Sequence record: LC373201.2
Reading direction: 5' to 3' (one strand)
Source: Enterobacter phage EspM4VN
DNA: 64,000 nt
A model generated the notes under the pieces. It was not told where the DNA came from. It saw only the letters and a list, made by a program, of their open reading frames with translations, and ran no database searches. Each line of letters opens with the position of its first letter. Positions within the stretch are counted from its first letter, which is position 1. Made by a program: the position numbers and the translations under genes. This document shows positions 23,663 through 54,681 of this stretch, piece by piece.

Positions 23663-24181
23663 TTAGATGGTATTCATGTAGAGAGGGACAACCTGCTCAG
23701 CGATCAAAATGATCTCGTTGATGGTAAAGTCGCCGCCATAAGAGTTCAGCTTCATCTGCGCCCCGTTGGTCGCGAGGTTCCCTGCCTTGTCAACACTGAA
23801 GAACGTGATGAAAGAGAGAACGTCCGGAGGCGGTAAACTGGAATCACGGCTCTTTGACAACTGGTTGCCAGTGGAGCCGACAAAGTCCAGCAACATTGTC
23901 CTGTTGGAAGTTGAACCAGACCATGTTCCGATAATGTTCACCTTGACAGGCAAGATGGAATCTACGGGAAACGCATGGAATTTATGATCAGACAATTTGA
24001 AGAAAGGAGCTAACCCGGTCACGGACGAAGGATGTGGTGTCTTGCCATCCAACAACGTTAAGAGATCAACACCAGTCGCTCCAGCAGGCAAAGCCGCTGT
24101 AAGGCCAGAGAACCTCACTTCGACTTTGATGCGATGCGTCTGAAGCATATTGCCCAGATAAGGAGAAGGTAGAATGGCCAT
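23663..24181 (-). CDS. hypothetical protein (172 aa)
   Basis: ORF track. Confidence 0.5.
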   Translation of the reverse strand: MAILPSPYLGNMLQTHRIKVEVRFSGLTAALPAGATGVDLLTLLDGKTPHPSSVTGLAPFFKLSDHKFHAFPVDSILPVKVNIIGTWSGSTSNRTMLLDFVGSTGNQLSKSRDSSLPPPDVLSFITFFSVDKAGNLATNGAQMKLNSYGGDFTINEIILIAEQVVPLYMNTI

Positions 24182-24189
24182 GGCTCCTC

Positions 24190-24426
24190 CTAGGACACGA
24201 TAATAGAAGAAGCGGAAGACGCGCTCTTAACCCATCCGACCGTTGGTGGGGTGAGCACAACGATATTACCTTGATAGAGAGTATGAGCCGGAGAGGAAGC
24301 ACTCGGTGTGGTTGGACTATCACACAAATACACAGAACCTTGAGTCACTTGTATTGTTTTCAATGATGTGCCATCTGAGACTTGCGTCCATGTACTTGCG
24401 TCCAGAGTAAACTTGGCTGTTGCCAT
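24190..24426 (-). CDS. hypothetical protein (about 78 aa, start MATAKF)
   Basis: AGGAGG RBS. A T4-consensus late promoter TATAAATA lies about 27 nt upstream. Confidence 0.5.
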   Translation of the reverse strand: MATAKFTLDASTWTQVSDGTSLKTIQVTQGSVYLCDSPTTPSASSPAHTLYQGNIVVLTPPTVGWVKSASSASSIIVS

Positions 24427-24453
24427 GATACACCTCCTGTACAAGTTCAGATC

Positions 24454-24461
24454 TATTTATA
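24454..24461 (-). promoter_or_regulatory. T4-type late promoter TATAAATA (minus strand)
   Basis: Exact gp55-type consensus upstream of 24190..24426. It is preceded by the terminator hairpin AGCCGGATAaggaTATCCGGCT + T-run (24462-24495). Confidence 0.5.
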
Positions 24462-24907
24462 CCGGACAAAAGAAAGCCGGATATCCTTATCCGGCTATGC
24501 CACATCGATGGGATGGGTGGAAAGACTACACACTTCGCACTGGTACTGCCTTATGGGAGAGCGCGTCAGGAGTCGAACCTGAAGTCGTCGGCGTAGAGAA
24601 AGCTATTTGCATTTCACTATCCTCGCCTCGATTTTCTTAACTTCCTAAACACCCGATTACGAGAGAGTCGACATGCACATCTTCTAACTCTTCAGGAAGT
24701 CACGCCCAAAATATGATTTGCGATGATGGACCCATTCCATCTGGGGCTGGGTGAGTGGGAGTTGAACCCACAACGCTTGGCTCGCTTTCCCTACCATTCA
24801 GGCCACCCAATTCCAGGAGGTAGAACACCTTTGCCGTCAGTGTCCATGCGCCAGTCTTCCGCCCTAGCCTCCACTCGCGTCTGGGATTTCCGCGATGATC
24901 GCAAATT

Positions 24908-24996
24908 TGGCGGAAGGTGAAGGATTCGAACCTTCGGGGCTTATAAGCCCCACTCGATTAGCAATCGAGTCCCTTAAACCTCTCGGGCAACCTTCC
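24908..24996 (-). tRNA. tRNA-Ser (anticodon GCT), CCA encoded
   Basis: Hand fold: acceptor GGAAGGT/ACCTTCC, anticodon stem CTCGA/TCGAG with loop TTGCTAA, long variable arm, T-arm GAAGGTTCGAATCCTTC. Confidence 0.7.
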
Positions 24997-25063
24997 AGTA
25001 TTAGCCCCTCCCTGTCACCATCCAGGAATCCTGTAGGAATCGAACCTACACGAGGGGGTTATT

Positions 25064-25147
25064 TGGAGCGGGAGAGCAGGATTCGAACCTGTCCAGTGAT
25101 CGTCGCCGATGATCAGTCAGCTACTGGCCAACCCCTATGGCTCCCGC
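25064..25147 (-). tRNA. tRNA-like gene, possibly tRNA-Ile (GAT); atypical variable region
   Basis: Acceptor GCGGGAG/CTCCCGC, anticodon stem GCTGA/TCGGC with loop CTGATCA, TTCGAAT T-loop, CCA encoded. The D-arm and T-stem are imperfect. Confidence 0.4.
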
Positions 25148-25255
25148 GAAATTAGGACGGGCTTCACACCCGATTGTGCATTTCATCTGCCCGTTTGAAG
25201 GGCGACCAGTGCCTTCTGGTCAGATACACAGCGTGGCTGCAACGCTTACTGTGTT

Positions 25256-25339
25256 TGGTGTGAGTGGATGGATTCGAACCACCGCGCTGTTACGGGGAGA
25301 TTTACAGTCTCCTGCATTCGACCGCTCTGCCACACTCAC
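25256..25339 (-). tRNA. tRNA-Tyr (anticodon GTA), CCA encoded
   Basis: Acceptor GTGAGTG/CACTCAC, anticodon stem GGAGA/TCTCC with loop CTGTAAA, long variable arm, T-arm GGTGGTTCGAATCCATC. Confidence 0.6.
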
Positions 25340-25584
25340 ATTTGGTCTACCGCTACGTGCTGGGCCACGCTCGAGGACATCGGCCATCCTTCCTCAGCTA
25401 ATCCACGCAGCGGCAGATTTGTTTCAGAGTGTCCGGTGTAGCAACCCGTGAGGTGCGCACTACTGTAGCCTCTACACTCTGAATTTGGTGGGCGTTACTA
25501 TCGTCGTCTTCGGATTCCGTTCGGCTATTGGACAGAGGCTTGGAGCTTGTCGGTTGCGTACTTCGTGCCTATCCACTTTCGTTC

Positions 25585-25660
25585 ACACCCATTGTCTGGC
25601 GACGATGGCAGGACTTGAACCTGCGACATACGGTTTAACAGACCGCCGTTCTACCGACTG
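25585..25660 (-). tRNA. tRNA-Asn (anticodon GTT), CCA encoded
   Basis: Canonical 76-nt cloverleaf: acceptor GACGATG/CATCGTC, D-arm GTTCAGTCGGTAGAAC, loop CTGTTAA, T-arm GCAGGTTCAAGTCCTGC. Confidence 0.75.
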
Positions 25661-25673
25661 AACTACATCGTCT

Positions 25674-25871
25674 TTATCCGTGCTTGTTCGCTTCAATCGC
25701 CCTTAATTGGGCATCAGCGTCAGCTTTGGTGTCATGTGTCCCAAGAACCTTCGTCTTGGTGTGGTCAAGGACAACCCACTTGTCGCCTCGCCTTTCAACA
25801 AACTCGACAATCTCTTTGTTGTCAGTAGCGAGGCCATCCCACTCAGCAATAAAATCACCGAACGTTTTCAT
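25674..25871 (-). CDS. small protein, paralog A (65 aa, MKTFGDFIAEWDG...)
   Basis: ORF 14 nt upstream of tRNA-Asn. The ATG has a GGTGAG RBS. It shares the MKTF.EF N-terminus and a roughly 40-nt conserved leader with 25908..26135. Confidence 0.45.
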   Translation of the reverse strand: MKTFGDFIAEWDGLATDNKEIVEFVERRGDKWVVLDHTKTKVLGTHDTKADADAQLRAIEANKHG

Positions 25872-25907
25872 CTTACTCACCAATTGTTTATTGAACAACT
25901 GGTTTAT

Positions 25908-26135
25908 TTAAACCCCGTACACGATGCCACGGCCTTTCGGTGTCTTACCATTACCGAACCATTTCCCTGTCATCTGAGCAGAGCCTGGTGTACTGGCAAC
26001 AACAAATTCACTACCACCGTGACCTTCTTTGGTGAATTCGGCCTTTGGATTCTTCTTCAGGCAGACCTGTTTCCATTCATCAAAGTCATTGTATTCCTTG
26101 TTGGCTTCGGTCAGGAATTCTTTAAACGTTTTCAT
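25908..26135 (-). CDS. small protein, paralog B (75 aa, MKTFKEFLTEANK...)
   Basis: Tandem paralog of 25674..25871 with a near-identical 5' leader. Confidence 0.45.
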   Translation of the reverse strand: MKTFKEFLTEANKEYNDFDEWKQVCLKKNPKAEFTKEGHGGSEFVVASTPGSAQMTGKWFGNGKTPKGRGIVYGV

Positions 26136-26559
26136 GCTACTCTCCAATTGTTTGTTGAACAACTGGTTTATTTAGGTGCTCCCGAGGCGGCATTTCAATT
26201 CCGCGATCCCATCACGCCTGCCGTAGACCGGAGCTTGCTGGCAGTCCAACAATATTTGGTGTTCCCTGAGGGAGTCGAACCCCCAACTTCCGTTATTCTC
26301 AACAACCTTCCCCAGTCCGTGCAGTCTGGTACTCAGATGTCTACCTTCACGTTCGCCTGTATCCAAGCCTATCTCTTCATTTAACCTTACAGCCTCAATC
26401 TGCACGGGTGAAAGAGCTTCAGAGATACTGCCATACAACGGGAACAAAACTGGCGGGGTCTGAGGCTTTTCACCTCACCTGCTGGGTTTGGCCGCCCAGC
26501 CGTTCTCTATGAGGATTCGCTGTCCGGACAGCTATCCCTTAAACTATCGCCCCTCAATT

Positions 26560-26639
26560 TGGTTGGAGGAGAAGGATTCGAACCTTCAACGGCTGCCGCC
26601 ATCCCCTCAGGGAATGTCTACCCCTTCCATCATCCTCCA
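26560..26639 (-). tRNA. tRNA-Ser (anticodon TGA), CCA encoded; unusual U1-A72
   Basis: Acceptor TGGAGGA/TCCTCCA, anticodon stem CATTC/GGATG with loop CCTGAGG, variable arm GGCGGCAGCC, T-arm GAAGGTTCGAATCCTTC. Confidence 0.5.
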
Positions 26640-28412
26640 AATTATTGTGTGACCAACCAAGGACTGTCAACCCTTTATCCCGTTTGTGCATGATCAGTTC
26701 ATGCAGGCCTCTTTGTGCTGCCTCACGGCAACGCGCTTCTGCTGGTCATTGGCTTGCACCGTAGCCTCACAACAGGCGTTTATTTTTCCAGGGCTTTCCA
26801 CTTGCAAGTCTTGACCATACAGGGATACGGGCTTGCAAGATCGGGTTGGTAACAACTCTGATGGCTCTGAACGTTCTTTTCACTAGTCATCCACAACTGA
26901 TATTCGGATGTCCAGAGCCATCAGAGTTGCAGCCAGGCTACAACCCGCACTTCAGTGTCTTCGTCACACTTCGGCACTTGTCCTCTACGCTCGGACCAAA
27001 CGAGGCTGGCCGACATAAACATAACACCACTCATCACTAGAGCGAGGATGTGGTTGATAGCCACGATGTATGCCTCTGTCGCAGAGTGATCACGCTTGTC
27101 AGGATGATCACTGTTTTGCAGTACCTGCCGCAAAGTAGAGTTCTCTGAACTTCAATGACCCCTCATCTTGTACTATCGCCGTCGGGAACGTTCACCATGT
27201 GAATCAAACCTTTAGGTTAAGTTCAATGTCCAGAGGACTCTACTTTGCGTTGTGGGGGCAAACCCCCACACGGCTACTTCTTTAACAGGGATTGCTAGCC
27301 CTGGGGATTCCACTGTTTAAGGCTTTATCCCATAACGCCTGAGGCGTGTTCTCAAACTAATAGAGTTTGCTTAATTGCAAACTGATGTGGCTATGGGACA
27401 CATCTGTGACGTATCTCTTATCCGGATTCGAACCGGATTTATCCTGGCAGAGGAATCTAACCCCTTTACCTCGTGGCAACGAGGACGGTCAACAGACCTC
27501 AAGATACGTCACAGATGTGTTGCCCGTCACTTGCCAGAGATCGGGGCGGATGGTAAGACTTCGCTCACATCTGGGAGGACACTGCTGTCGTTCGCGACCG
27601 ACAACCACTCAGATATATTTCAATCATGTTGTGGTGCAATGCCCTCTCAGATGTCGGCGGGAGCTTATTAATCACACCCTCCCGCCTATTGTTAGTGCGC
27701 CGAATTTTGTTATGAGGAGTCGGAAGACCTCACTGACTTATAGGCTATTACGCCGCCATCAGAACTACATCATCGTTTGCATTTATTTTTGTGGTCTGTT
27801 TCTAAAAACCCGCAAAGTCACGCACAACGAAAACGAAAACCTGTTTGAGCACAAGACGCCATGTCCTGGGTTCACATCGAAGTGTTTGTCTAGTGCCCAA
27901 ACAGCTTTTCGTTCAGTGGGTTAACTATACTTTGTAACCCGTTATTGACAAAACTTTAAATCTGCCGGAACTTACGCATCCGGCCTCGCCTGTTGGTGCT
28001 CCTTCGAATCCGGGAAGATCAGCAGGAACTATGAATCAAGTTAATTCGACCAACAGGAACCTTTGTGTTGCCCTTTGACGCAACATTATGAACCCTCTGT
28101 GAAGACTCATAATGTTGTCGGCGTGATGGAACCTGGCAGATCCGACCTCCCCTATATGTTGGTGTCGACTTGCCAACGGGGTGCTCTCAAGCATCTGAGC
28201 TAATCACGCTACAACAGGGAGTTTCGTTCTCCGACGGTCAGTGCGTCCACTAACACCATGCAAGGTGGATATTCCGCCTCTATTCACACAAGCCCCTGAG
28301 ACTAGGGGTTAACTGGTTTTGGGCTGCAAACCCGACTCCCACTGTGCTGTTTCCCTCGTGTTTAATACTTTACCGCAGACCAGCTAATTTGAAAAGTCCT
28401 CTCCTCTTTGAG

Positions 28413-28559
28413 CTACACTGCCCACAGCAGTGCGGACGAACCTTCACTCAAAACCGGATGCGCCGAAGTGGGCGACTGAGTACCGGACTGATCGGGTAGA
28501 CCCAGGAGAGTAAAGGTAATCCCGATCAGGAGGATAAGGAGCAACATCATGTAAAACAT
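28413..28559 (-). CDS. small hydrophobic peptide (48 aa, MFYMMLLLILLIGITFTLLGL...)
   Basis: Below the ORF-track cutoff. GGAGGG RBS 7 nt upstream. Single TM helix. Confidence 0.35.
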   Translation of the reverse strand: MFYMMLLLILLIGITFTLLGLPDQSGTQSPTSAHPVLSEGSSALLWAV

Positions 28560-28616
28560 AGTGTTCCCTCCCTTCCATGCAACTAACTTTACTGCAATTC
28601 TGTATTGAATAAAGCG

Positions 28617-29189
28617 TTAATTTAACACTTTTAACTTCACATCGCGCTCGAGCAGATACACATATTCGCGAGCGGCGGCCAGCGACATATAATGGGTGGA
28701 CGGGATGCTGTGTTTGTTCAGCGTCTCTTTTAATTCAACGCGCTCAGCCCAACCATTAATGGATGTGCCGTAGAAGCCGATGATAGCCGCAAAATAAATG
28801 TTGCTAGTCTCAGGCTCCAGGATATAGTTCACCGTGAAGCACACCTCGGAGCGGATTGCTTCAAGCTTGATGCCGACACGAGTGCTAGGATAGTCGTTGG
28901 CCACACATAAATGGCGGAAGCGGTCACGCCTGGCTTGTGACGATTGCGTTAATTCGGATACCAATGTCGCCGTGGCATCGATATTAAAGGAGAAAGTGGA
29001 AGCCGTGTTCAAATCTGACTTTGCCCGATCTACCGCAGATGGGGGAACACGGCGGAAATTGACTTCTTTACGTGTCAGGCGCTTCACTTCGGCGGATATA
29101 TCTTCAAACGAAATATCCTTTGATTTCTTCCCTTCATATTTCTCTAATAAAGGAATGATATGTTTCGTGATGGCAGTGTTGATGTGCAT
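28617..29189 (-). CDS. hypothetical protein (190 aa)
   Basis: ORF track; last minus-strand gene before the divergent late region. Confidence 0.5.
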   Translation of the reverse strand: MHINTAITKHIIPLLEKYEGKKSKDISFEDISAEVKRLTRKEVNFRRVPPSAVDRAKSDLNTASTFSFNIDATATLVSELTQSSQARRDRFRHLCVANDYPSTRVGIKLEAIRSEVCFTVNYILEPETSNIYFAAIIGFYGTSINGWAERVELKETLNKHSIPSTHYMSLAAAREYVYLLERDVKLKVLN

Positions 29190-29490
29190 GAGAGGTTCCT
29201 TAATATATGGTTAATTGACCACACTATTATATTGGTGAAGGTGTTATTGAATTAAAGGCCAACAAAATAGGAGCGCGGTTTATTAATAGGCAAAAACTAC
29301 TTTTCTACACCACTCAGAGACTGTATCTTACTGTGGTGCCCTTTGAGTTGTGAGTGTTAACGAACAACGAAAAGCAGCCTCCATGGCTGTGGAATGGGAC
29401 TGCCTGTCAAGGCGGTGTTACGAGCGAAGCGAGTAGGTTAATATAATCGATATATCGCGAGCGCGAGGAAGCCATTTCAATCTGCTCCGG

Positions 29491-29498
29491 CTAAATAT
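29491..29498 (+). promoter_or_regulatory. late promoter motif CTAAATAT
   Basis: Motif about 40 nt upstream of the baseplate wedge gene start. Confidence 0.45.
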
Positions 29499-29537
29499 CT
29501 TCAACACCATATTCAAGCTCAGGTGATGGAGATCAAC

Positions 29538-31316
29538 ATGGCCACACAAACAGTTCCCTCACTCGATGTCAGGACTTTCGAGTTCCTTCTCAAGAAGCGA
29601 ATGAAAGCAGACCCGACCTTCAAAGATTACAACTTCGAAGGTTCCGGCCTCAGTGCCATCATTCGCCTCTTGGCCTCGGATGCCAATGCCGTCGGGTATA
29701 TGCAGAACATGCTGAATGGCGAAAGTCATCTTCACTCTGCCCAACAGCGTTCCAACGTCGGCCTCGCGGCGGGGTTCCTTTCGTATACCCCTGACAACTA
29801 CAAGGCGGCATTCCTGTATGCCAACGTGACTGTCACTCCATACGATGCCAGCACAGCCCCTGATACAATCGTGATTGACCGCCGCGCGATGTTCATTGGA
29901 GCGAAGGACGGCAAGTCCTATAACTTCACTGTCGACACGCCTGTCAGCGCCACGCTGGTTGACGGATCATACAAGTTCGAAAATCTGAAGCTCGTCCAGG
30001 GCAACTGGTTGTACAAATCATACGACGTCGAGGGTAGTGCGATCTCTTCTTATGTGATCCCGTCTTCAACTGTTGACATCAACCACATGGTGGTGCAGGT
30101 GGCGGCTTCCGACACAGCAGATGAGACTAGCACATATTCCCGTTATGTCAGTCCGTTCGACCTGAGCCAATACGCCCAGCTCTACTTTGTGGAACTTGGC
30201 CTGGATGGGATGTACACCTTTGAATTCGGTGATGGGTACATCTGCAAACGCGTCGAAGACGGGAACGTCGTCTATCTGCAGTATCTAGAGACATCTGGTG
30301 AAGATGGTAACGACATCACCTCTTTGTCTTCTGCTTCATCTATCGGTGGCTTCAACCTCGTGGACGTTGAACTGGTGTCGGAGCGCTCATCAGGCGGTGC
30401 TGCCCCAGAAAGCATCGAAGACACGAAGCGCCTTGCACCACTGGCGTACCAGGCTGAGGGCGCGGCTGTTGCTGAGATGGATTATGCTGTGTTGACAGAG
30501 CGTCTGTTCTCCAATGTATCACGCGCTAAAGCATATGGCGGAGATACGCTCTCTCCTCCCGACTCCGGATACGTGTACATCGCTGTCATCCCTACTACTG
30601 GTGAGACGCTTTCAGACGCCGAGAAGGCAGATATCGTGGCGACGTTAGACAAGTATAATGTTGGGACCATCACACCCAAGATCGTTGATGCTGATATCAC
30701 GTACATCGATGTCACCACAACCGTGTTCTGGGATCCGACTTCTACTGCGTTCAATGAAGAGCAACTCAAGGTCGTTGTGTCAAACGGTGTTGTCAATTGG
30801 GGTGCATCTAACCTTGAAGGATTCGAAGAGTTGTTCGACAAAGAGCAGCTGCAAGAAGCCATCACAAAGATGGACCGTTCTATTGCGTCCAACATCGCAT
30901 CCGTGAAGTACAAGCGCCATTTCAGGCCGGACTACGGGGTTCTGGACAGCTTCACGTTTGACTTCGACAGGTCTATTGCTGCTGGCTCTGTGCGCATCAG
31001 TGGGTTCAAGCCGCTTCCGGCTGAGGTGGATTTCACGTACTACATACGAGACGTCAGTGGTGTGTTGAATATGTACAAGGTCAGCACAACCGATACGACG
31101 AAAGAGTATCTGGTGCAGGCGGTCGGTACTGTGGATTATGTGAATGGTGTTGTGGAATTGCAACAGATCACTGTATCGAACTACAATACCGAGGGTGTGA
31201 CTATCGTGGTGTCACCTGATGGTCTGAATCAGAACCTGCAGGCGGTGCAGAACCAGGTATTGCGCATTGGCACAGTGGCAGTCCTGCCGGAGGTGCGTTA
31301 TGTCCAAAGATCTTAA
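29538..31316 (+). CDS. baseplate wedge subunit (T4 gp6-like)
   Basis: 593 aa. N-terminal KDYNFEGSGLSAIIRLLASDANAVGYMQN parallels T4 gp6 LDYDFEGSRLNVLCDLLAYNTLYIQQFGN. GGAGAT RBS. Confidence 0.6.
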   Translation: MATQTVPSLDVRTFEFLLKKRMKADPTFKDYNFEGSGLSAIIRLLASDANAVGYMQNMLNGESHLHSAQQRSNVGLAAGFLSYTPDNYKAAFLYANVTVTPYDASTAPDTIVIDRRAMFIGAKDGKSYNFTVDTPVSATLVDGSYKFENLKLVQGNWLYKSYDVEGSAISSYVIPSSTVDINHMVVQVAASDTADETSTYSRYVSPFDLSQYAQLYFVELGLDGMYTFEFGDGYICKRVEDGNVVYLQYLETSGEDGNDITSLSSASSIGGFNLVDVELVSERSSGGAAPESIEDTKRLAPLAYQAEGAAVAEMDYAVLTERLFSNVSRAKAYGGDTLSPPDSGYVYIAVIPTTGETLSDAEKADIVATLDKYNVGTITPKIVDADITYIDVTTTVFWDPTSTAFNEEQLKVVVSNGVVNWGASNLEGFEELFDKEQLQEAITKMDRSIASNIASVKYKRHFRPDYGVLDSFTFDFDRSIAAGSVRISGFKPLPAEVDFTYYIRDVSGVLNMYKVSTTDTTKEYLVQAVGTVDYVNGVVELQQITVSNYNTEGVTIVVSPDGLNQNLQAVQNQVLRIGTVAVLPEVRYVQRS

Positions 31317-52490: not shown

Positions 52491-54681
52491 TATAGAATAT
52501 GCCCCGCTCAAGACGGGGTTCAAGATAGAAGACGTCAAATTGCGTATGGACCAAACGTTCATGCGCAAGCCGTCTGTGCGCGCCCCTCGTGTCCAGTTGA
52601 TGTTGACAGATGAGCAGGAAGATGAATTCGTCGAATGCGCGATGGATGCCCATTACTTCGCTGCCAACTACTACAAGATCACGACTATCGATAAAGGCTT
52701 CATCCTATTCGATATGCACGACTATCAGAAGCAGTTGTTCCATGACTTCCAGGATCACCGCTTCAACGCCGTTGTCCAGGCACGTCAGTCAGGTAAATGT
52801 GTGAAGGGTGACAGCATCGTCGAGGTCTACGACACAGTCAGCCAAGAAGAGTTTAAAGTCACCATCGAGGAGCTTCACAGCCGCTTCGAGGGACCGAACC
52901 ACGCCGAGCCACTGAACGCCTTTGGCAAACACGATAAGTTCGTAGACAGCCGCTTCGGCAAGCGTTATTTCGTTCGCTGTGATATAGGCTGGGTGCCTGT
53001 CATCGCCGCGCACAAGACCAAGCAGTATCAGGAATATGTTGTCGTCACTTCCAGCGGCCGTCGTATCAACGTGGCCGATGATCACATGTTCTTCAATCAG
53101 AATATGAAGGAAGTGTTTGCCAAAGATCTGGTTGCTGGTTCACAGCTGATGACCGAAGAAGGTCTAGAAGAAGTCGTTGAGGTATGGCAGACTGGTGAGA
53201 TGCACCACATGTATGACCTACAGGTGAAATCCAGCGACCAGCGCTACTACACCAACGGCTTCCTCAGTCATAACACGACTGTTGTGGCTGCGTTCCTTCT
53301 CTGGTATGCGATGTTCCACTCTGACAAAGAGATCGCGGTACTGGCGAACAAAGAGAAGCAGGCGATTGAAATCCTTGACCGTATTCGTAAGGCGTATCAG
53401 GATTTGCCATTCTTCATCCAGCAGGGCTGTGAGAAGTTCGGCTCCACGCTCATCGAATTCGAGAACGGCTCGAAGATATACGCCTATGCAACATCTTCTG
53501 ACTCCATCCGTGGTCGATCTGTATCGCTCCTGTATGTGGACGAAGTGGCGTTCATCGAAAACGACTTTGAATTCTGGGAGTCAACATTCCCTGCGATTGC
53601 ATCTGCAGAGACTTCACGTTGTATCCTGACCAGTACACCGAAAGGCCAGCGCGGGTTGTTCTACGACATCGTCACCAAGGCGAACCCAGAACATCCTCAG
53701 TACAACGACTTCAATCTCACAGAGGTTCCATGGTATCGTGTGCCAACATACACCAAGGATCCAAACTGGGAATCCAAGCAGAGGGCGAAGCTGGGCGATG
53801 CACGTTTCGATCAGGAATTTGGCATCAAGTTCCGTGGGTCGGTCGGTTCACTTATCCCGGCCAAGTGCCTGGACAAGATGACCTCGAAGCTGTATCAGGA
53901 GCCGAACGAGTTCACCAAGATCTATCACGACTACGATCCGAAGCGAATCTATATGGGTATCGCAGATACAGGCAAGGGCGTCGAGGGGGATTATTCTGTG
54001 CTGACCATTATCGACATCACAGACTATCCTCACAAGATCGCAGCCAAGTATCGAAACAACACGATACCTCCAATGATGTATGCGTACACAATCGCCGATA
54101 TGGGCGAGAAGTATGGGACGTGTCCAATGTTGGTAGAAACCAACAACGACGTGGGTGGACAGGTAATCACAATTCTATATCAGGAAATTGAATATCCAGA
54201 GATCATCTTCACCACAACAGATGCGAAGGGTACTGGTAAGCGAATCGGCGGTAGGCGGCCTGAACCTGGTATCAACACCAACAAGAAGGTGCGCACAAAC
54301 GGCTGTGCCAACCTGAAAGCCCTGATCGAAAGGGAGATGCTGGTTGTTGACGATCAAGACACGATAGATGAACTCAGTACATTCGTATGGACTGGGACAA
54401 GGTATGAAGCCGATGATGGTTGTCATGATGACTGTGTAATGCCTCTTGTGCTGTATGCATGGGCGGTGAAACAAGAATGGTTTAGTGACCTCACCAATTC
54501 CAGTATCTCAGTCGACATGAGAGGCCGCTTGTCTGCGATGGAAGAATCGCAGATGATGCCTTTCGGTGGTGTGTTGTCGGCTCCTGATCCGTTCTCTGTG
54601 GAGAGTGTGCCAGGATTTGGTGGCGTGCAGGTTTATGACGAACGTTCTGGCATGTCCATGGAAGAATGGCTGAGACGGTGA
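52471..54681 (+). CDS. terminase large subunit (T4 gp17-like) interrupted by a mini-intein
   Basis: Exteins give QARQSGK|TTVVAAFLLWYAMF, matching the T4 gp17 Walker A SRQLGKTTVVAIFLAHF. The C-terminal nuclease region is conserved. Start at 52471 (MAYQK) is preferred by RBS spacing. Confidence 0.85.
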   Translation: MAYQKRDIEYAPLKTGFKIEDVKLRMDQTFMRKPSVRAPRVQLMLTDEQEDEFVECAMDAHYFAANYYKITTIDKGFILFDMHDYQKQLFHDFQDHRFNAVVQARQSGKCVKGDSIVEVYDTVSQEEFKVTIEELHSRFEGPNHAEPLNAFGKHDKFVDSRFGKRYFVRCDIGWVPVIAAHKTKQYQEYVVVTSSGRRINVADDHMFFNQNMKEVFAKDLVAGSQLMTEEGLEEVVEVWQTGEMHHMYDLQVKSSDQRYYTNGFLSHNTTVVAAFLLWYAMFHSDKEIAVLANKEKQAIEILDRIRKAYQDLPFFIQQGCEKFGSTLIEFENGSKIYAYATSSDSIRGRSVSLLYVDEVAFIENDFEFWESTFPAIASAETSRCILTSTPKGQRGLFYDIVTKANPEHPQYNDFNLTEVPWYRVPTYTKDPNWESKQRAKLGDARFDQEFGIKFRGSVGSLIPAKCLDKMTSKLYQEPNEFTKIYHDYDPKRIYMGIADTGKGVEGDYSVLTIIDITDYPHKIAAKYRNNTIPPMMYAYTIADMGEKYGTCPMLVETNNDVGGQVITILYQEIEYPEIIFTTTDAKGTGKRIGGRRPEPGINTNKKVRTNGCANLKALIEREMLVVDDQDTIDELSTFVWTGTRYEADDGCHDDCVMPLVLYAWAVKQEWFSDLTNSSISVDMRGRLSAMEESQMMPFGGVLSAPDPFSVESVPGFGGVQVYDERSGMSMEEWLRR
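52798..53274 (+). other. mini-intein (159 aa) inserted in the terminase Walker A P-loop
   Basis: Begins with Cys (CVKGDSIVEV, block A). Block B is INVADDHMF. Ends LSHN followed by a +1 Thr (block G). There is no homing-endonuclease-sized insert. Removing it restores a canonical P-loop. Confidence 0.7.

What the first reader, a model, noticed from the sequence alone, without database searches (positions are those of the whole stretch)
27398..27520. Perfect 19-bp inverted repeat encloses an 85-nt tRNA-like core with a GCC anticodon-like loop
ACACATCTGTGACGTATCT at 27398-27416 is exactly complementary to AGATACGTCACAGATGTGT at 27502-27520. The 85 nt between them contain a 6-bp T-arm (ATCCGGTTCGAATCCGGAT) and an anticodon-like hairpin (CCTCG-TTGCCAC-CGAGG), but no normal acceptor or D-arm. 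A 19-bp perfect helix clamping a tRNA-like module is not a normal tRNA. It looks like a distinct structured RNA, possibly a processed ncRNA, a tRNA-derived regulatory element, or a recombination or cruciform site.
Basis: seen in the sequence. Interest (0 to 1): 0.6.

Follow-up and report, generated by a model that had tools for sequence, protein, structure and literature searches.

The report
tRNA-like tip on conserved phage RNA hairpin
The inverted repeat is the stem of a folded RNA domain in a phage's non-coding "small-RNA island": the stem is conserved across the phage family, while its tip here is a rare, degenerate tRNA look-alike that cannot be an ordinary tRNA.

Summary
The 19-bp perfect inverted repeat (27398-27416 / 27502-27520) is real and not chance. 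The RNA sense is the minus strand. The window is an Ackermannviridae phage (about 93% to Shigella phage Ag3). The element lies in a roughly 2-kb gene-free stretch beside the tRNA cluster.

It is not a tRNA. ARAGORN and Rfam find nothing. That loop differs in relatives.

The stem is one member of a conserved family of about 17-20-bp "CAUCU...AGAUG" helices. All Ackermannviridae loci with enough downstream sequence to judge carry one, downstream of an unannotated tmRNA-like tag-coding RNA. On 14 variants, 10 of 19 pairs covary. Helix length is constant, but the tips differ: 4, 48, 50, 51, 83 or 95-96 nt. The 83-nt T-arm tip found here occurs in only five other database phages, all Taipeivirus. 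All stem differences between those copies and this one are compensatory.

Best reading: a structured, probably processed RNA module. The helix is a dsRNA punctuation or processing stem, RNase III-like by inference. It carries a tRNA-derived tip. Function is untested. The architecture resembles Y RNAs and tmRNA tRNA-like domains, but the element fails membership tests for both.

The parts
27502..27520 (-). 5' arm of the long helix (RNA sense ACACAUCUGUGACGUAUCU). A further U.G pair (27501 with 27417) makes 20 pairs.
   Evidence: Compensatory changes against Taipeivirus copies. Member WIN_B of the CAUCU-helix family.
27398..27416 (-). 3' arm of the long helix (AGAUACGUCACAGAUGUGU).
27487..27498 (-). 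D-like hairpin GGUC-UGUU-GACC (4 bp, 4-nt loop, no G18G19 equivalent).
   Evidence: fold. Invariant in all five copies.
27469..27484 (-). 'Anticodon-like' hairpin CCUCG-UUGCCA-CGAGG with a 6-nt loop. Taipeivirus copies have CCUUG-UGAAGA-CAAGG.
   Evidence: One compensatory pair (C-G to U-A). Four of the 11 differences between copies sit in this loop.
27449..27465 (-). Variable-arm-like hairpin AGGGG-UUAGAUU-CCUCU. It contains a G.U pair, which favours the minus-strand RNA.
27420..27438 (-). Canonical T-arm AUCCGG-UUCGAAU-CCGGAU. It is preceded by a 10-nt linker GCCAGGAUAA (27448-27439).
27568..27653 (-). Paralogous CAUCU helix 'WIN_A' (CAUCUGAGAGGGCAUUGC / GCAGUGUCCUCCCAGAUG) with an unrelated 50-nt tip. 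It is the orthologue of the only such helix in Ag3 and Det7.
27521..27567 (-). Spacer 'seg' (GAGCGAAGUCUUACC...CUGGCAAGUGACGGGCA), a small hairpin. In Taipeivirus it lies after the helix rather than before it. Together with helix B it forms the 168-nt stretch that Ag3 lacks, bounded by the 8-nt direct repeat CAGATGTG.
27745..27780 (-). tmRNA-like tag reading frame GCA AAC GAT GAT GTA GTT CTG ATG GCG GCG TAA TAG (ANDDVVLMAA**) in the same putative transcript.
   Evidence: Rfam RF04321 29.4 bits, E = 0.0035 / 0.00038, below the gathering score. Tag variants ANDNTFLAVA, ANDNVFLAVA and ANDDLMMAAA in relatives.
27656..27733 (-). Structured region after the tag: helix 5 (27733-27728 with 27717-27712), its loop (27723-27720) paired with 27703-27700 as a pseudoknot, and hairpin GGCGGGAG...CUCCCGCC (27686-27656) with a conserved UGAUUAAUAA loop.
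   Evidence: helix 97.9% paired, 3 covarying pairs; pseudoknot CCGA/UCGG, CCAA/UUGG, CCAG/CUGG, GUCG/CGAC.
27924..27951 (-). Sigma-70-like promoter TTGTCA-16-TATAGT upstream of the tag RNA. Consensus match only.
   Evidence: The sequence is conserved in Taipeivirus.
27364..27383 (-). Hairpin AGUUUGC-AAUUAA-GCAAACU immediately 3' of the element. Weak terminator-like site with a poor U run.
   Evidence: Also forms in the full-transcript fold.

Best explanation
**What it is**
- The inverted repeat is the closing stem of a roughly 125-nt RNA domain read from the minus strand.
- It sits at the 3' end of a long non-coding transcript, about 560 nt from promoter-like 27951-27924 to hairpin 27383-27364.
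- The same transcript carries a tmRNA-like tag reading frame and pseudoknots. It lies in the phage's tRNA/small-RNA island.

**Shown**
- The stem belongs to a conserved family of about 17-20-bp 'CAUCU-NN-GAGG... / ...CCUC-NN-AGAUG' helices in Ackermannviridae.
- Their length and pairing are kept by many compensatory changes.
- Their tips are interchangeable inserts of 4 to 96 nt.
- The tip here is a tRNA-derived module: a perfect T-arm plus three hairpins. It is nearly invariant between two genera, apart from compensated stem changes and one apical loop.
- It is not a decoding tRNA.

**Inferred**
- The helix works at the RNA level as a double-stranded 'punctuation' or processing signal between modules of a polycistronic small-RNA precursor. 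The most likely reader is host RNase III, whose footprint is about 22 bp.
- Cleavage in the stem would release the tip as a stub-ended small RNA of about 100 nt.
- The tip's T-arm would make it a mimic of, or substrate for, tRNA-binding enzymes (TruB, TrmA, RNase P, CCA-adding enzyme). This would stabilise it or let it titrate such factors.
- The 168-nt presence/absence difference against Ag3 arose by recombination between the repeated helix arms.
For: **The structure is real.** Perfect 19 bp plus a U.G pair; z = -7.35. It survives in the 563-nt context fold (z = -7.4).

**Strand.**
- Canonical UUCGAAU T-loop, and G.U pairs in the V-like hairpin and at the inner end of the helix.
- Model R1, built from minus-strand copies, scores 151.9 bits on the minus strand and 28.9 on the plus strand.
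- Same orientation as the tRNAs.

**Non-coding.**
- Ag3 annotates no gene across this stretch.
- The overlapping ORFs have no Pfam match.

**Helix family.**
- Present in every Ackermannviridae locus with enough downstream sequence to judge, including a second copy in this window. Arm length is constantly 17-18 from the CATCT anchor. Tips are 4, 48, 50, 51, 83 and 95-96 nt.
- On 14 variants: 95.5% paired, 10 of 19 pairs changed on both sides, 0 of 500 shuffles as good, and slid registers collapse to 35-58%.

**The element itself.**
- There are 11 differences between the window and Taipeivirus copies. Six form 3 compensated pairs, four lie in one apical loop and one lies in a junction. None breaks a stem.

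**Punctuation role.**
- In many relatives the helix starts exactly where an upstream tRNA-like module ends...AAACGGC-T-CCA|CATCT.
- In this window, helix A starts directly after the pseudoknot hairpin.
- Homologous long helices with variable tips flank the tag RNA in T1-like, N4-like and T5-like phages.

**RNase III footprint.** About 22 bp (PMC6212723). The window's helix is 20 bp, plus 3 more G-C pairs beyond a 2-nt bulge.
Against: - No expression or cleavage data exist. RNase III is inferred only from helix length and regularity, and the published scoring matrix could not be obtained.
- The promoter and terminator are consensus matches at background frequency.
- Only 3 distinct sequences of the 83-nt tip exist, so its internal hairpins, apart from one pair, are invariant and uninformative.
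- The helix variants were collected with a pairing-based detector. This inflates percent paired, though not the both-sided changes.
- Compensatory changes would also preserve a DNA hairpin.
- The strong conservation of the tip is not explained by a mere processing by-product.
Confidence: 0.45

Rival explanations
1. The tip is the tRNA-like domain, or its remnant, of the phage's own tmRNA-like RNA. The T-arm-bearing 3' domain would work together with the upstream tag reading frame to enter stalled ribosomes or to interfere with host trans-translation.
For: - Same strand and putative transcript as a tag frame ANDDVVLMAA** with tmRNA-like helix 5 and pseudoknots.
- The T-arm lies about 350 nt 3' of the tag, as in one-piece tmRNA.
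- It is the only T-arm module in this window's tag-RNA region. Most related loci with full flanks also keep at least one.
- Felixounavirus Mushroom has a closed tRNA-Ala-like domain (CGGGGCG...CGCCUCG-ACCA, G3.U70) about 80 nt after its tag RNA. It matches RF00023 at E = 5e-5.
- Other tips (51 nt) also carry a T-arm abutting the helix.
Against: - No G3.U70. Position 3:70 of a 7-bp reading would be A-U.
- No encoded CCA in the window copy.
- Two unpaired A between the T-stem and the helix.
- Rfam tmRNA models do not reach the element.
- Most Ackermannviridae carry non-T-arm tips in this helix.
- Loci L122 and L123 showed no T-arm motif within -400 to +1000 of the anchor.
- Many phages with the same tag RNA have no T-arm within -700 to +1200 nt.
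Confidence: 0.15
2. The tip is a decayed tRNA (or tRNA-like) gene with no function of its own. It is carried along because it sits inside a functional hairpin. Only the helix is selected.
For: - The region is littered with degenerate, sporadically present T-arm modules.
- The same helix works with a 4-nt loop in P01 and L107.
- The tip is rare: 5 other phages among 50,697 records, nothing in IMG/VR beyond two of these, and nothing in metagenome or genome scans.
- Model R1 finds no diverged relatives.
Against: - 78 of 83 tip positions are identical between an Agtrevirus-like phage and Taipeiviruses, whose surrounding non-coding DNA is about 85% identical and rearranged.
- The one stem substitution is compensated.
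- The changes cluster in a single loop rather than being spread out.
Confidence: 0.2
3. It is a Y-RNA-like scaffold. The long terminal stem binds one protein (as Ro60/Rsr binds Y RNA) and the tRNA-like domain recruits a second factor.
For: - Architecture and size match the published description of Y RNAs: 80-130 nt, a long stem formed by the 5' and 3' ends, and a tRNA-like domain with a T-arm.
- D. radiodurans Yrn1 even has a 5-bp 'anticodon' stem with a 6-nt loop (PMC4201824).
- Salmonella hosts encode Rsr-YrlA.
- The base of the helix (CAUCU/AGAUG, GAGG/CCUC) is sequence-conserved, as expected for a protein site.
Against: - The GNCGAAN0-1G Rsr motif is absent.
- Module order is D-AC-V-T, not the T-AS-D order of YrlA.
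- There is no Ro60-size ORF within 4 kb.
- No Rfam family matches, even at E <= 10.
- The same stem carries non-tRNA-like tips in most relatives.
Confidence: 0.07
4. It is a DNA-level element: a MITE-like mobile insertion with terminal inverted repeats, or a cruciform or recombination hotspot.
For: - Presence/absence polymorphism: Ag3 lacks a 168-nt block bounded by an 8-nt direct repeat CAGATGTG.
- Perfect terminal repeats.
- The order of helix and spacer is permuted between the window and Taipeivirus, as expected from recombination via a circle or tandem copy.
Against: - Single copy in 64 kb, and always at the same syntenic place.
- The 'target duplication' is simply the shared end of two paralogous helix arms.
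- The arms are conserved in phages without the insert, capping a 4-nt loop.
- Spacing of 4-96 nt argues against a dimeric DNA-binding site, and an 85-nt loop disfavours cruciform extrusion.
- G.U pairs are strand-specific.
Confidence: 0.05
5. It is a genuine, unusual tRNA-Gly(GCC) or another decoding tRNA.
For: - Perfect T-arm.
- UUGCCA equals the first six bases of a tRNA-Gly(GCC) anticodon loop (from the sequence; the comparison with E. coli tRNA-Gly is from memory).
Against: - ARAGORN and Rfam tRNA, tRNA-Sec and tmRNA models are all negative, even at E <= 10 on 161 nt.
- 6-nt loop.
- The loop reads UGAAGA in the other copies.
- No 7-bp acceptor contiguous with the T-stem, and no D-loop GG.
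Confidence: 0.01

Closest known systems
Bacterial Y RNAs (D. radiodurans Yrn1; YrlA of Salmonella and mycobacteriophages)
   Same: - About 120 nt.
- A long stem made by the 5' and 3' ends closes a tRNA-like domain with a canonical T-arm.
- Yrn1 also has a 5-bp 'anticodon' stem with a 6-nt loop.
- Some are phage-encoded (PMC4201824).
   Different: - No GNCGAAN0-1G motif.
- No adjacent Ro60 gene.
- No D-loop conservation.
- Module order differs from YrlA.
- No Rfam match.
- The stem family here also carries non-tRNA-like tips.
tmRNA tRNA-like domain (one-piece, permuted two-piece, and tag-less phage forms such as DS6A)
   Same: - T-arm-bearing domain 3' of a tag reading frame, with pseudoknots in between.
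- In permuted tmRNA genes the tRNA-like domain is likewise the 'tip' of a long helix.
- Sub-threshold Rfam tmRNA hits lie upstream of the element.
   Different: - No G3.U70 and no ACCA end.
- The domain is closed on itself by 20 bp rather than pairing with the RNA's 5' end.
- It has extra D-, anticodon- and variable-like hairpins that tmRNA lacks.
RNase III processing stems (rRNA operon stems, T7 R sites, sRNA precursors)
   Same: - Regular double helix of about 20-23 bp enclosing or separating functional RNAs in a polycistronic precursor.
- Length is conserved while sequence covaries.
   Different: - Cleavage has not been shown.
- Conserved base sequences (CAUCU, GAGG) are not known RNase III determinants.
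- The enclosed cargo is variable.
Class II tRNAs and tRNA-Sec
   Same: - T-arm identical to real tRNAs.
- Long variable-arm-like hairpin.
- D-arm with a 4-nt loop, as in bacterial tRNA-Sec (from memory).
   Different: Fails every detector. It has a 6-nt 'anticodon' loop, 10 unpaired nt before the T-arm, and no acceptor end.
Large phage-associated ncRNAs next to tRNAs (GOLLD, ROOL)
   Same: Phage-borne, adjacent to tRNA clusters, modular, and some embed tRNAs (from memory).
   Different: No Rfam GOLLD or ROOL match. The locus here looks like a string of separate small modules.

Membership tests
tRNA | Recognised by tRNA detectors / covariance model RF00005 | tested here: not met
   ARAGORN finds no gene here. 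Rfam tRNA and tRNA-Sec give no hit at the gathering score, nor at E <= 10 on 161 nt.
tRNA | 7-nt anticodon loop with U33 on a 5-bp stem | tested here: not met
   The loop is 6 nt (UUGCCA; UGAAGA in Taipeivirus)..
tRNA | 7-bp acceptor stem contiguous with the T-stem, plus discriminator and CCA | tested here: not met
   A 20-bp helix is separated from the T-stem by AA. The 3' side continues UCACAG in the window.
tRNA | T-arm: 5-bp stem, loop UUCRANY, G53-C61 | tested here: met
   UCCGG-UUCGAAU-CCGGA at 27437-27421.
tRNA | D-loop with G18 G19 to dock on the T-loop | tested here: not met
   The D-like loop is UGUU.
tmRNA tRNA-like domain | Acceptor stem with G3.U70, A73 and a CCA end | tested here: not met
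   Read as a 7-bp acceptor from the junction, position 3:70 is A-U. There is no CCA in the window copy (alignment).
tmRNA tRNA-like domain | Linked to a tag reading frame (resume codon GCA, ...AA stop) in the same RNA | tested here: inconclusive
   The tag frame lies 230 nt upstream on the same strand, with no predicted terminator between. Co-transcription has not been shown.
tmRNA tRNA-like domain | Match to Rfam tmRNA models (RF00023, RF04321, RF01849-51) | tested here: not met
   Only the tag region scores, and below gathering (29.4 against 47 bits). Nothing covers 27398-27520.
Y RNA / YrlA | Long stem formed by the 5' and 3' ends plus an internal tRNA-like domain with a T stem-loop; 80-130 nt | tested here: met
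   Definition taken from PMC4201824.
Y RNA / YrlA | GNCGAAN0-1G (Ro60/Rsr recognition) near the 5' end | tested here: not met
   The 5' arm is ACACAUCUGUGACGUAUCU. The closest stretch, GACGUAUC, does not fit, and it is not conserved in Taipeivirus (GGAGGUAUC).
Y RNA / YrlA | Encoded within about 4 kb of, and on the same strand as, a Ro60 (TROVE) gene | tested here: not met
   There is no minus-strand ORF over 200 aa in 24000-30500. The neighbours are a tail needle knob protein, gp6 baseplate wedge and a 190-aa protein with no Pfam match.
RNase III processing stem | Near-continuous dsRNA of about two helical turns (about 20-22 bp) | tested here: met
   19 Watson-Crick pairs plus 1 G.U, then 3 more G-C pairs after a 2-nt bulge. 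Family arm length is constant. Footprint from PMC6212723.
RNase III processing stem | Staggered cleavage with 2-nt 3' overhangs, dependent on rnc | not testable with these tools
   No transcript-end data are available. The position-specific score table of PMC6212723 is not held.
MITE-like mobile element | Multiple dispersed copies with terminal inverted repeats and target-site duplications | tested here: not met
   One copy in the window. All database copies lie at the syntenic site. The 8-nt direct repeat is part of a paralogous helix arm.

The most novel reading that the evidence does not exclude
The element is the tRNA-like end of an undescribed, phage-borne descendant of tmRNA. This would be a family of RNAs found in hundreds of enterobacterial phages: Ackermannviridae and T1-like, T5-like, N4-like, Felix O1-like and P1-like groups. 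The family keeps a tag reading frame (ANDDVVLMAA and variants), helix 5 and pseudoknots. It has replaced the canonical alanine-accepting domain with long helices carrying swappable tips, some of them tRNA-like. Phages would use it to hijack, redirect or block host trans-translation.
Probability: 0.15. Interest if true: 0.85.

Novelty: new variant of a known kind. Interest (0 to 1): 0.55.

Why it matters
- If the helix family is a processing or recognition signal, it defines how a whole unannotated small-RNA operon in a therapeutically used phage family (Ackermannviridae) is cut into working parts.
- It also shows that phages shuffle tRNA-like modules as cassettes on a fixed RNA stem.
- The tip adds a new example to the short list of non-decoding tRNA mimics: Y RNAs, tmRNA and mascRNA.
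- The larger prize is the neighbouring tag-coding RNA. A tmRNA-like gene shared by hundreds of unrelated enterobacterial phages, and missed by ARAGORN and by Rfam gathering thresholds, would open the question of how virulent phages manipulate ribosome rescue.
- At the practical level, several deposited genomes annotate strings of tiny 'hypothetical proteins' across this region. These are very probably RNA.

Tried and rejected
1. **Ordinary or unusual tRNA.** ARAGORN and Rfam are negative at the gathering score, at E <= 10 on 5.5 kb, and at E <= 10 on 161 nt.
2. **Known RNA family.** Only chance microRNA-hairpin matches to the long stem.
3. **Wider relatives of the 83-nt tip.**
   - blastn 'distant' against 50,697 phage records found 7 records, which are 5 phages.
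   - Of the 10 IMG/VR 16-mer matches, only the two contigs that are copies of the same two published genomes carry the element; the other eight are unrelated chance matches.
   - Two metagenome scans gave zero hits and one chance hairpin.
   - The genome scan gave zero.
   - Covariance model R1 over 620 kb of related loci found only the known copies plus the Det7 helix at 21 bits.
4. **Protein-coding reading.** The four overlapping ORFs have no Pfam match.
5. **Loop-to-spacer kissing interaction.** I tried to explain the variable apical loop this way, by inspection. The spacer forms its own hairpin and the complementarity does not covary, so I dropped it.
6. **Encoded CCA after an 8-bp 'acceptor'.** It is present in the Taipeivirus copy (AGAUACCU-C-CCA) and in some T5-like and 45-kb phages. 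It is absent in the window (UCACAG) and in others. I treat it as coincidence with the conserved CCUCCCAG arm.
7. **RNase III scoring.** The published in-vivo matrix is not held.
8. **Literature.** No paper mentions the tag ANDDVVLMAA, 'phage-encoded tmRNA' or tmRNA in Ackermannviridae, other than as the name of the ARAGORN tool. The 2025 tmRNA database paper does not discuss these phages.
Full report
**1. Observation**

- The two 19-nt arms are exactly complementary, at exactly the stated coordinates, with 85 nt between them.
- The arm sequence occurs nowhere else in the window, even with three mismatches. 0.02 matches are expected, and 0 of 100 shuffles give two.
- The three longest spaced inverted repeats of the whole 64-kb window all fall within 26853-27520.
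- The domain folds far better than shuffled sequence: -65.2 against -37.8 +/- 3.7 kcal/mol, z = -7.35.
On that strand the order is:
  - 5' arm;
  - GA;
  - D-like hairpin GGUC-UGUU-GACC;
  - hairpin CCUCG-UUGCCA-CGAGG;
  - hairpin AGGGG-UUAGAUU-CCUCU;
  - 10-nt linker;
  - T-arm AUCCGG-UUCGAAU-CCGGAU;
  - AA;
  - 3' arm.
- One detail is wrong. The 'anticodon-like' hairpin is 16 nt with a 6-nt loop.

**2. Context**

- The window is an Ackermannviridae phage. Its closest relatives are Salmonella phage P46FS4 and Shigella phage Ag3, at 92-94% identity.
- The element lies in a stretch of about 2 kb (26640-28600) that Ag3's authors left without genes.
  - On one side is a 190-aa ORF with no Pfam family, next to the gp6 baseplate wedge gene.
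  - On the other side is a minus-strand tRNA cluster: Ser, Tyr, Asn and a Ser-like gene.
- ORFs overlapping the element have no Pfam match.

**3. It is not a tRNA or any curated RNA family**

- ARAGORN does not call it.
- Rfam gives nothing at gathering thresholds.
- At E <= 10, whether 5.5 kb, 606 nt or only 161 nt is searched, only chance microRNA-hairpin matches to the long stem appear. There is no tRNA, tRNA-Sec, tmRNA or Y-RNA-type hit.

**4. Distribution of the 83-nt tip**

- A sensitive blastn of the element against 50,697 phage records finds it in only seven records, which are five phages: KWBSE43-6, K5lambda5, phi1_175010 and IME250 (three records). All are Taipeivirus. The match covers exactly arm to arm at about 91% identity.
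- In each case it sits at the same syntenic place, between the gp6-side ORF and the tRNA cluster.
- IMG/VR holds only copies of two of these genomes.
- Two metagenome scans and a genome scan found nothing related.
- The closest relatives of the window lack it. Ag3 reads ...CCUCCCAGAUGUG|UCUCACAG..., while the window has 168 extra nt there, bounded by the direct repeat CAGATGTG.

**5. Substitution pattern**

- The window and Taipeivirus copies differ at 11 positions:
  - six form three fully compensated pairs, two in the long helix (U-A to G-C, C-G to G-C) and one in the 6-nt-loop hairpin (C-G to U-A);
  - four lie in that hairpin's apical loop (UUGCCA against UGAAGA);
  - one lies in a junction.
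- No stem is weakened.
- With only three distinct sequences this is suggestive, not decisive: 24 of 500 shuffles reach the observed score.

**6. The key result: the helix is the conserved unit and the tip is optional**

- In Klebsiella phage P01 the same position holds CACAUCUUUGAGGAUAUUC-UUAC-GAGUAUCUUGAAAGAUGUG. That is the helix capped by four nucleotides.
- I scanned 30 Ackermannviridae-type loci, anchoring on CATCT and AGATG. Every locus with enough downstream sequence has such a helix, and the window has two: helix A at 27653-27568 and the finding, helix B.
- Arm length is always 17-18 bp from the anchor. The tips fall into six classes:

| Tip length | Found in | Note |
|---|---|---|
| 4 nt | P01, L107 | |
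| 48 nt | Ag3, Det7, SW16-7 and others | |
| 50 nt | window helix A, L117 | |
| 51 nt | L111, L115, L118, L119 | has a T-arm abutting the 3' arm |
| 83 nt | the finding | tRNA-like |
| 95-96 nt | Bestiario, L079, L113, L120, L123 | |

- On 14 distinct arm pairs:
  - 95.5% of cells pair;
  - 10 of 19 pairs show changes on both sides (32 cells);
  - no shuffle of 500 matches any of the main measures;
  - sliding the partner by 1-3 columns drops pairing to 35-58%.
- Caveat: the variants were collected with a pairing-based detector. This inflates percent paired but cannot create two-sided changes.
- The base of the helix (CAUCU/AGAUG) and a central GAGG/CCUC are nearly invariant.

**7. What surrounds it**

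*The tag reading frame*
- On the same strand, 230 nt upstream, is GCA AAC GAU GAU GUA GUU CUG AUG GCG GCG UAA UAG, which reads ANDDVVLMAA**. It lies at 27780-27745.
- Rfam's permuted-tmRNA model scores it at 29.4 bits (gathering score 47; E = 0.0035 on 5.5 kb, 0.00038 on 606 nt).

*How widely the tag segment is shared*
- The 140-nt segment around it is shared at 75-89% identity with hundreds of otherwise unrelated enterobacterial phages: 742 records matched the 1951-nt query.
- These include Deseoctovirus DS8, Felixounavirus, Gamaleyavirus and other N4-like phages, contigs of about 110 kb that I take to be T5-like, Erwinia phages, and P7 and other P1-like phages.
- The tag varies the way a coding sequence does: ANDNTFLAVA, ANDNVFLAVA, ANDDLMMAAA, ANDDVVLIAA.

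*Structure after the tag*
- The hairpin after the stop codons is 97.9% paired, with three covarying pairs.
- Its loop pairs with a downstream tetranucleotide that covaries: CCGA/UCGG, CCAA/UUGG, CCAG/CUGG, and GUCG/CGAC in a shifted register.

*Status in annotation and the literature*
- No record inspected annotates this RNA. ARAGORN does not call a tmRNA in the window or in the five related loci tested.
- I found no paper that mentions it.

*Transcript signals and recurring architecture*
- A sigma-70-like promoter (27951-27924) precedes it, and a weak terminator-like hairpin (27383-27364) follows the finding. Both are only consensus matches at background frequency.
- The whole 563-nt stretch folds into the same local domains, with z = -7.4.
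- In the other phage groups the tag RNA is likewise flanked by long helices with variable tips and related arm sequences, for example CACAACAGGUAAGAGCA / UGCUCUUUCCGUUGUG. One of them (L025) again encloses a T-arm.
- In many Ackermannviridae the CAUCU helix begins exactly where an upstream tRNA-like module ends...AAACGGC-U-CCA|CAUCU.

**8. Mechanism**

*Shown*
- It is a selected RNA helix of fixed length with swappable tips.
- It is co-oriented with tRNAs and with a tmRNA-like RNA.
- The tip has a perfect T-arm but fails every other tRNA criterion.

*Inferred (confidence about 0.45 for the whole statement)*
- The helix is a double-stranded punctuation or processing signal in a polycistronic small-RNA precursor.
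- E. coli-type RNase III is the obvious reader. Its substrate valley takes about 22 bp (PMC6212723). The window's helix offers 20 pairs, plus three more beyond a 2-nt bulge.
- Cleavage would free a tRNA-like RNA of about 100 nt. Its T-arm could attract TruB, TrmA, RNase P or the CCA-adding enzyme, as shown experimentally for bacterial Y RNAs (PMC4201824).
- The 168-nt difference from Ag3, and the swapped order of helix and spacer relative to Taipeivirus, are best explained by recombination between the repeated arms.

**9. Rivals**

- **(a) The tip is the tRNA-like domain or its remnant of the phage tmRNA-like RNA (0.15).**
  - This is attractive because Felixounavirus Mushroom has a closed tRNA-Ala-like domain with G3.U70 and ACCA just after its tag RNA. 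That domain matches RF00023 at E = 5e-5.
  - The finding's T-arm is also the only one in this window's tag-RNA region.
  - Against it: the element has no G3.U70 and no CCA. Many phages with the tag RNA have no nearby T-arm.
- **(b) The tip is a functionless decayed tRNA (0.20).** This fits the many sporadic T-arm fragments in the region. It does not fit the near-invariance of the tip.
- **(c) Y-RNA-like scaffold (0.07).** The architecture matches, down to a 6-nt 'anticodon' loop as in Yrn1. However, the Ro60 motif, a neighbouring Ro60 gene and any Rfam match are all absent.
- **(d) DNA-level mobile element or cruciform (0.05).** It is single copy and always syntenic. The arms are conserved without the insert.
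- **(e) Real tRNA (0.01).**

**10. Novelty and verdict**

- The interpretation 'distinct structured RNA' holds. The 'GCC anticodon' and 'helix clamps a tRNA-like module' readings do not.
- What is there is a rare tRNA-derived tip on a conserved, covarying helix family. That family is part of an undescribed phage small-RNA locus with tmRNA ancestry.
- I rate it a new variant of a known kind (non-decoding tRNA mimics and processing stems), with interest 0.55.
- The neighbouring tag RNA deserves its own follow-up and is the more surprising object.

Noticed in passing
window 27693-27834 (minus strand); also L016-L019, L025-L103: An unannotated tmRNA-like RNA.
- It has a tag frame ANDDVVLMAA** (27780-27745), a covarying helix 5 with pseudoknot, and a second pseudoknot-type hairpin with a conserved UGAUUAAUAA loop.
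- It is shared at 75-89% identity with hundreds of unrelated enterobacterial phages, including T1-like, N4-like, T5-like, Felix O1-like and P1/P7.
- It scores below Rfam gathering thresholds. ARAGORN did not call a tmRNA in the window or the five loci tested. No paper was found.
   Followed up: partly
L017 (Salmonella phage Mushroom) about 1665-1750: A closed tRNA-Ala-like domain, CGGGGCG...GCGGGUUCGAGUCCUGC-CGCCUCG-ACCA, with G3.U70. It lies about 80 nt downstream of that phage's tag RNA and is unannotated. It matches RF00023 at 22 bits, E = 5e-5. It looks like a tag-less tmRNA head placed next to a head-less tag RNA.
   Followed up: partly
window 26780-27010 (minus strand), including inverted repeat 26853-26929: This stretch is homologous to the region that scores as sRNA STnc100 (RF02076) in Serratia phage IME250 (48.7 bits) and is annotated STnc100 in Klebsiella phage P01. 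The window copy itself gives no Rfam hit. The 20-bp inverted repeat is its central hairpin.
   Followed up: partly
window 27129-27249: Another long inverted repeat: 22-nt arms, 91% complementary, 77-nt insert. Its inner ends, CTCTGAAC/GTCCAGAG, are the same as those of the 26853-26929 repeat. It is conserved in Ag3. Nature unknown.
   Followed up: no
window 28120-28209 (minus strand): A degenerate tRNA-like sequence, GCGUGAU...AUCACGC-C, with a good D-arm but an aberrant anticodon region and T-arm. Rfam tRNA scores 22.8 bits (gathering score 29). ARAGORN does not call it.
   Followed up: no
window 26560-26639 and 26641-26670 (minus strand): ARAGORN's tRNA-Ser(tga) is not confirmed by Rfam tRNA; only tRNA-Sec matches, at 24.5 bits and E = 0.15. 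The best sigma-70-like promoter of the region (TTGACA-18-AATAAT, 11 of 12) sits immediately upstream of it.
   Followed up: no
window about 26255-26300, 25092 and 25049 (minus strand): Further T-arm motifs outside called tRNAs. One example is GGGGG-TTCGACT-CCCTC followed by AGGGAAC-A-CCA at about 26284, which also occurs in Dickeya phage Kamild. These are possible undetected or decayed tRNA genes.
   Followed up: no
window 52879-52966 (minus strand): ARAGORN calls a tRNA-Asp with anticodon ATC far from the tRNA cluster. Rfam does not support it at the gathering score. It is probably a false positive.
   Followed up: no
L001 (Ag3) minus strand just upstream of the promoter-like site; absent at window 27959/27960: A discrete 77-nt tRNA-like module, GGCGAGG...UGUGGUUCGAUUCCACA-C-CCUCGCC.
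- It is present in Ag3, Det7 and SW16-7.
- Taipeivirus has a larger module there, about 150 nt.
- It is exactly missing in the window.
This is another example of cassette-like gain or loss of T-arm modules.
   Followed up: partly
L075 and L098 (IMG/VR contigs of about 182-185 kb): Genuine permuted (two-piece) tmRNA genes in large phage contigs: ...GCGGGUUCGACUCCCGC-CAACUCC-ACCA, then GGGGUUG..., with tag ANDDVYMVRAAA.
   Followed up: no
L005 (Klebsiella phage phi1_175010) and L023 (Bestiario): The deposited annotations fill this RNA-rich region with 10-15 'hypothetical proteins' of 30-70 aa on both strands. These are very probably over-calls.
   Followed up: no
L017 feature table: The table lists the Mushroom tRNAs on the minus strand of the locus. 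However, their T-arm/CCA motifs and the Rfam hits are on the plus strand. This is a strand inconsistency in the record or in its conversion.
   Followed up: no
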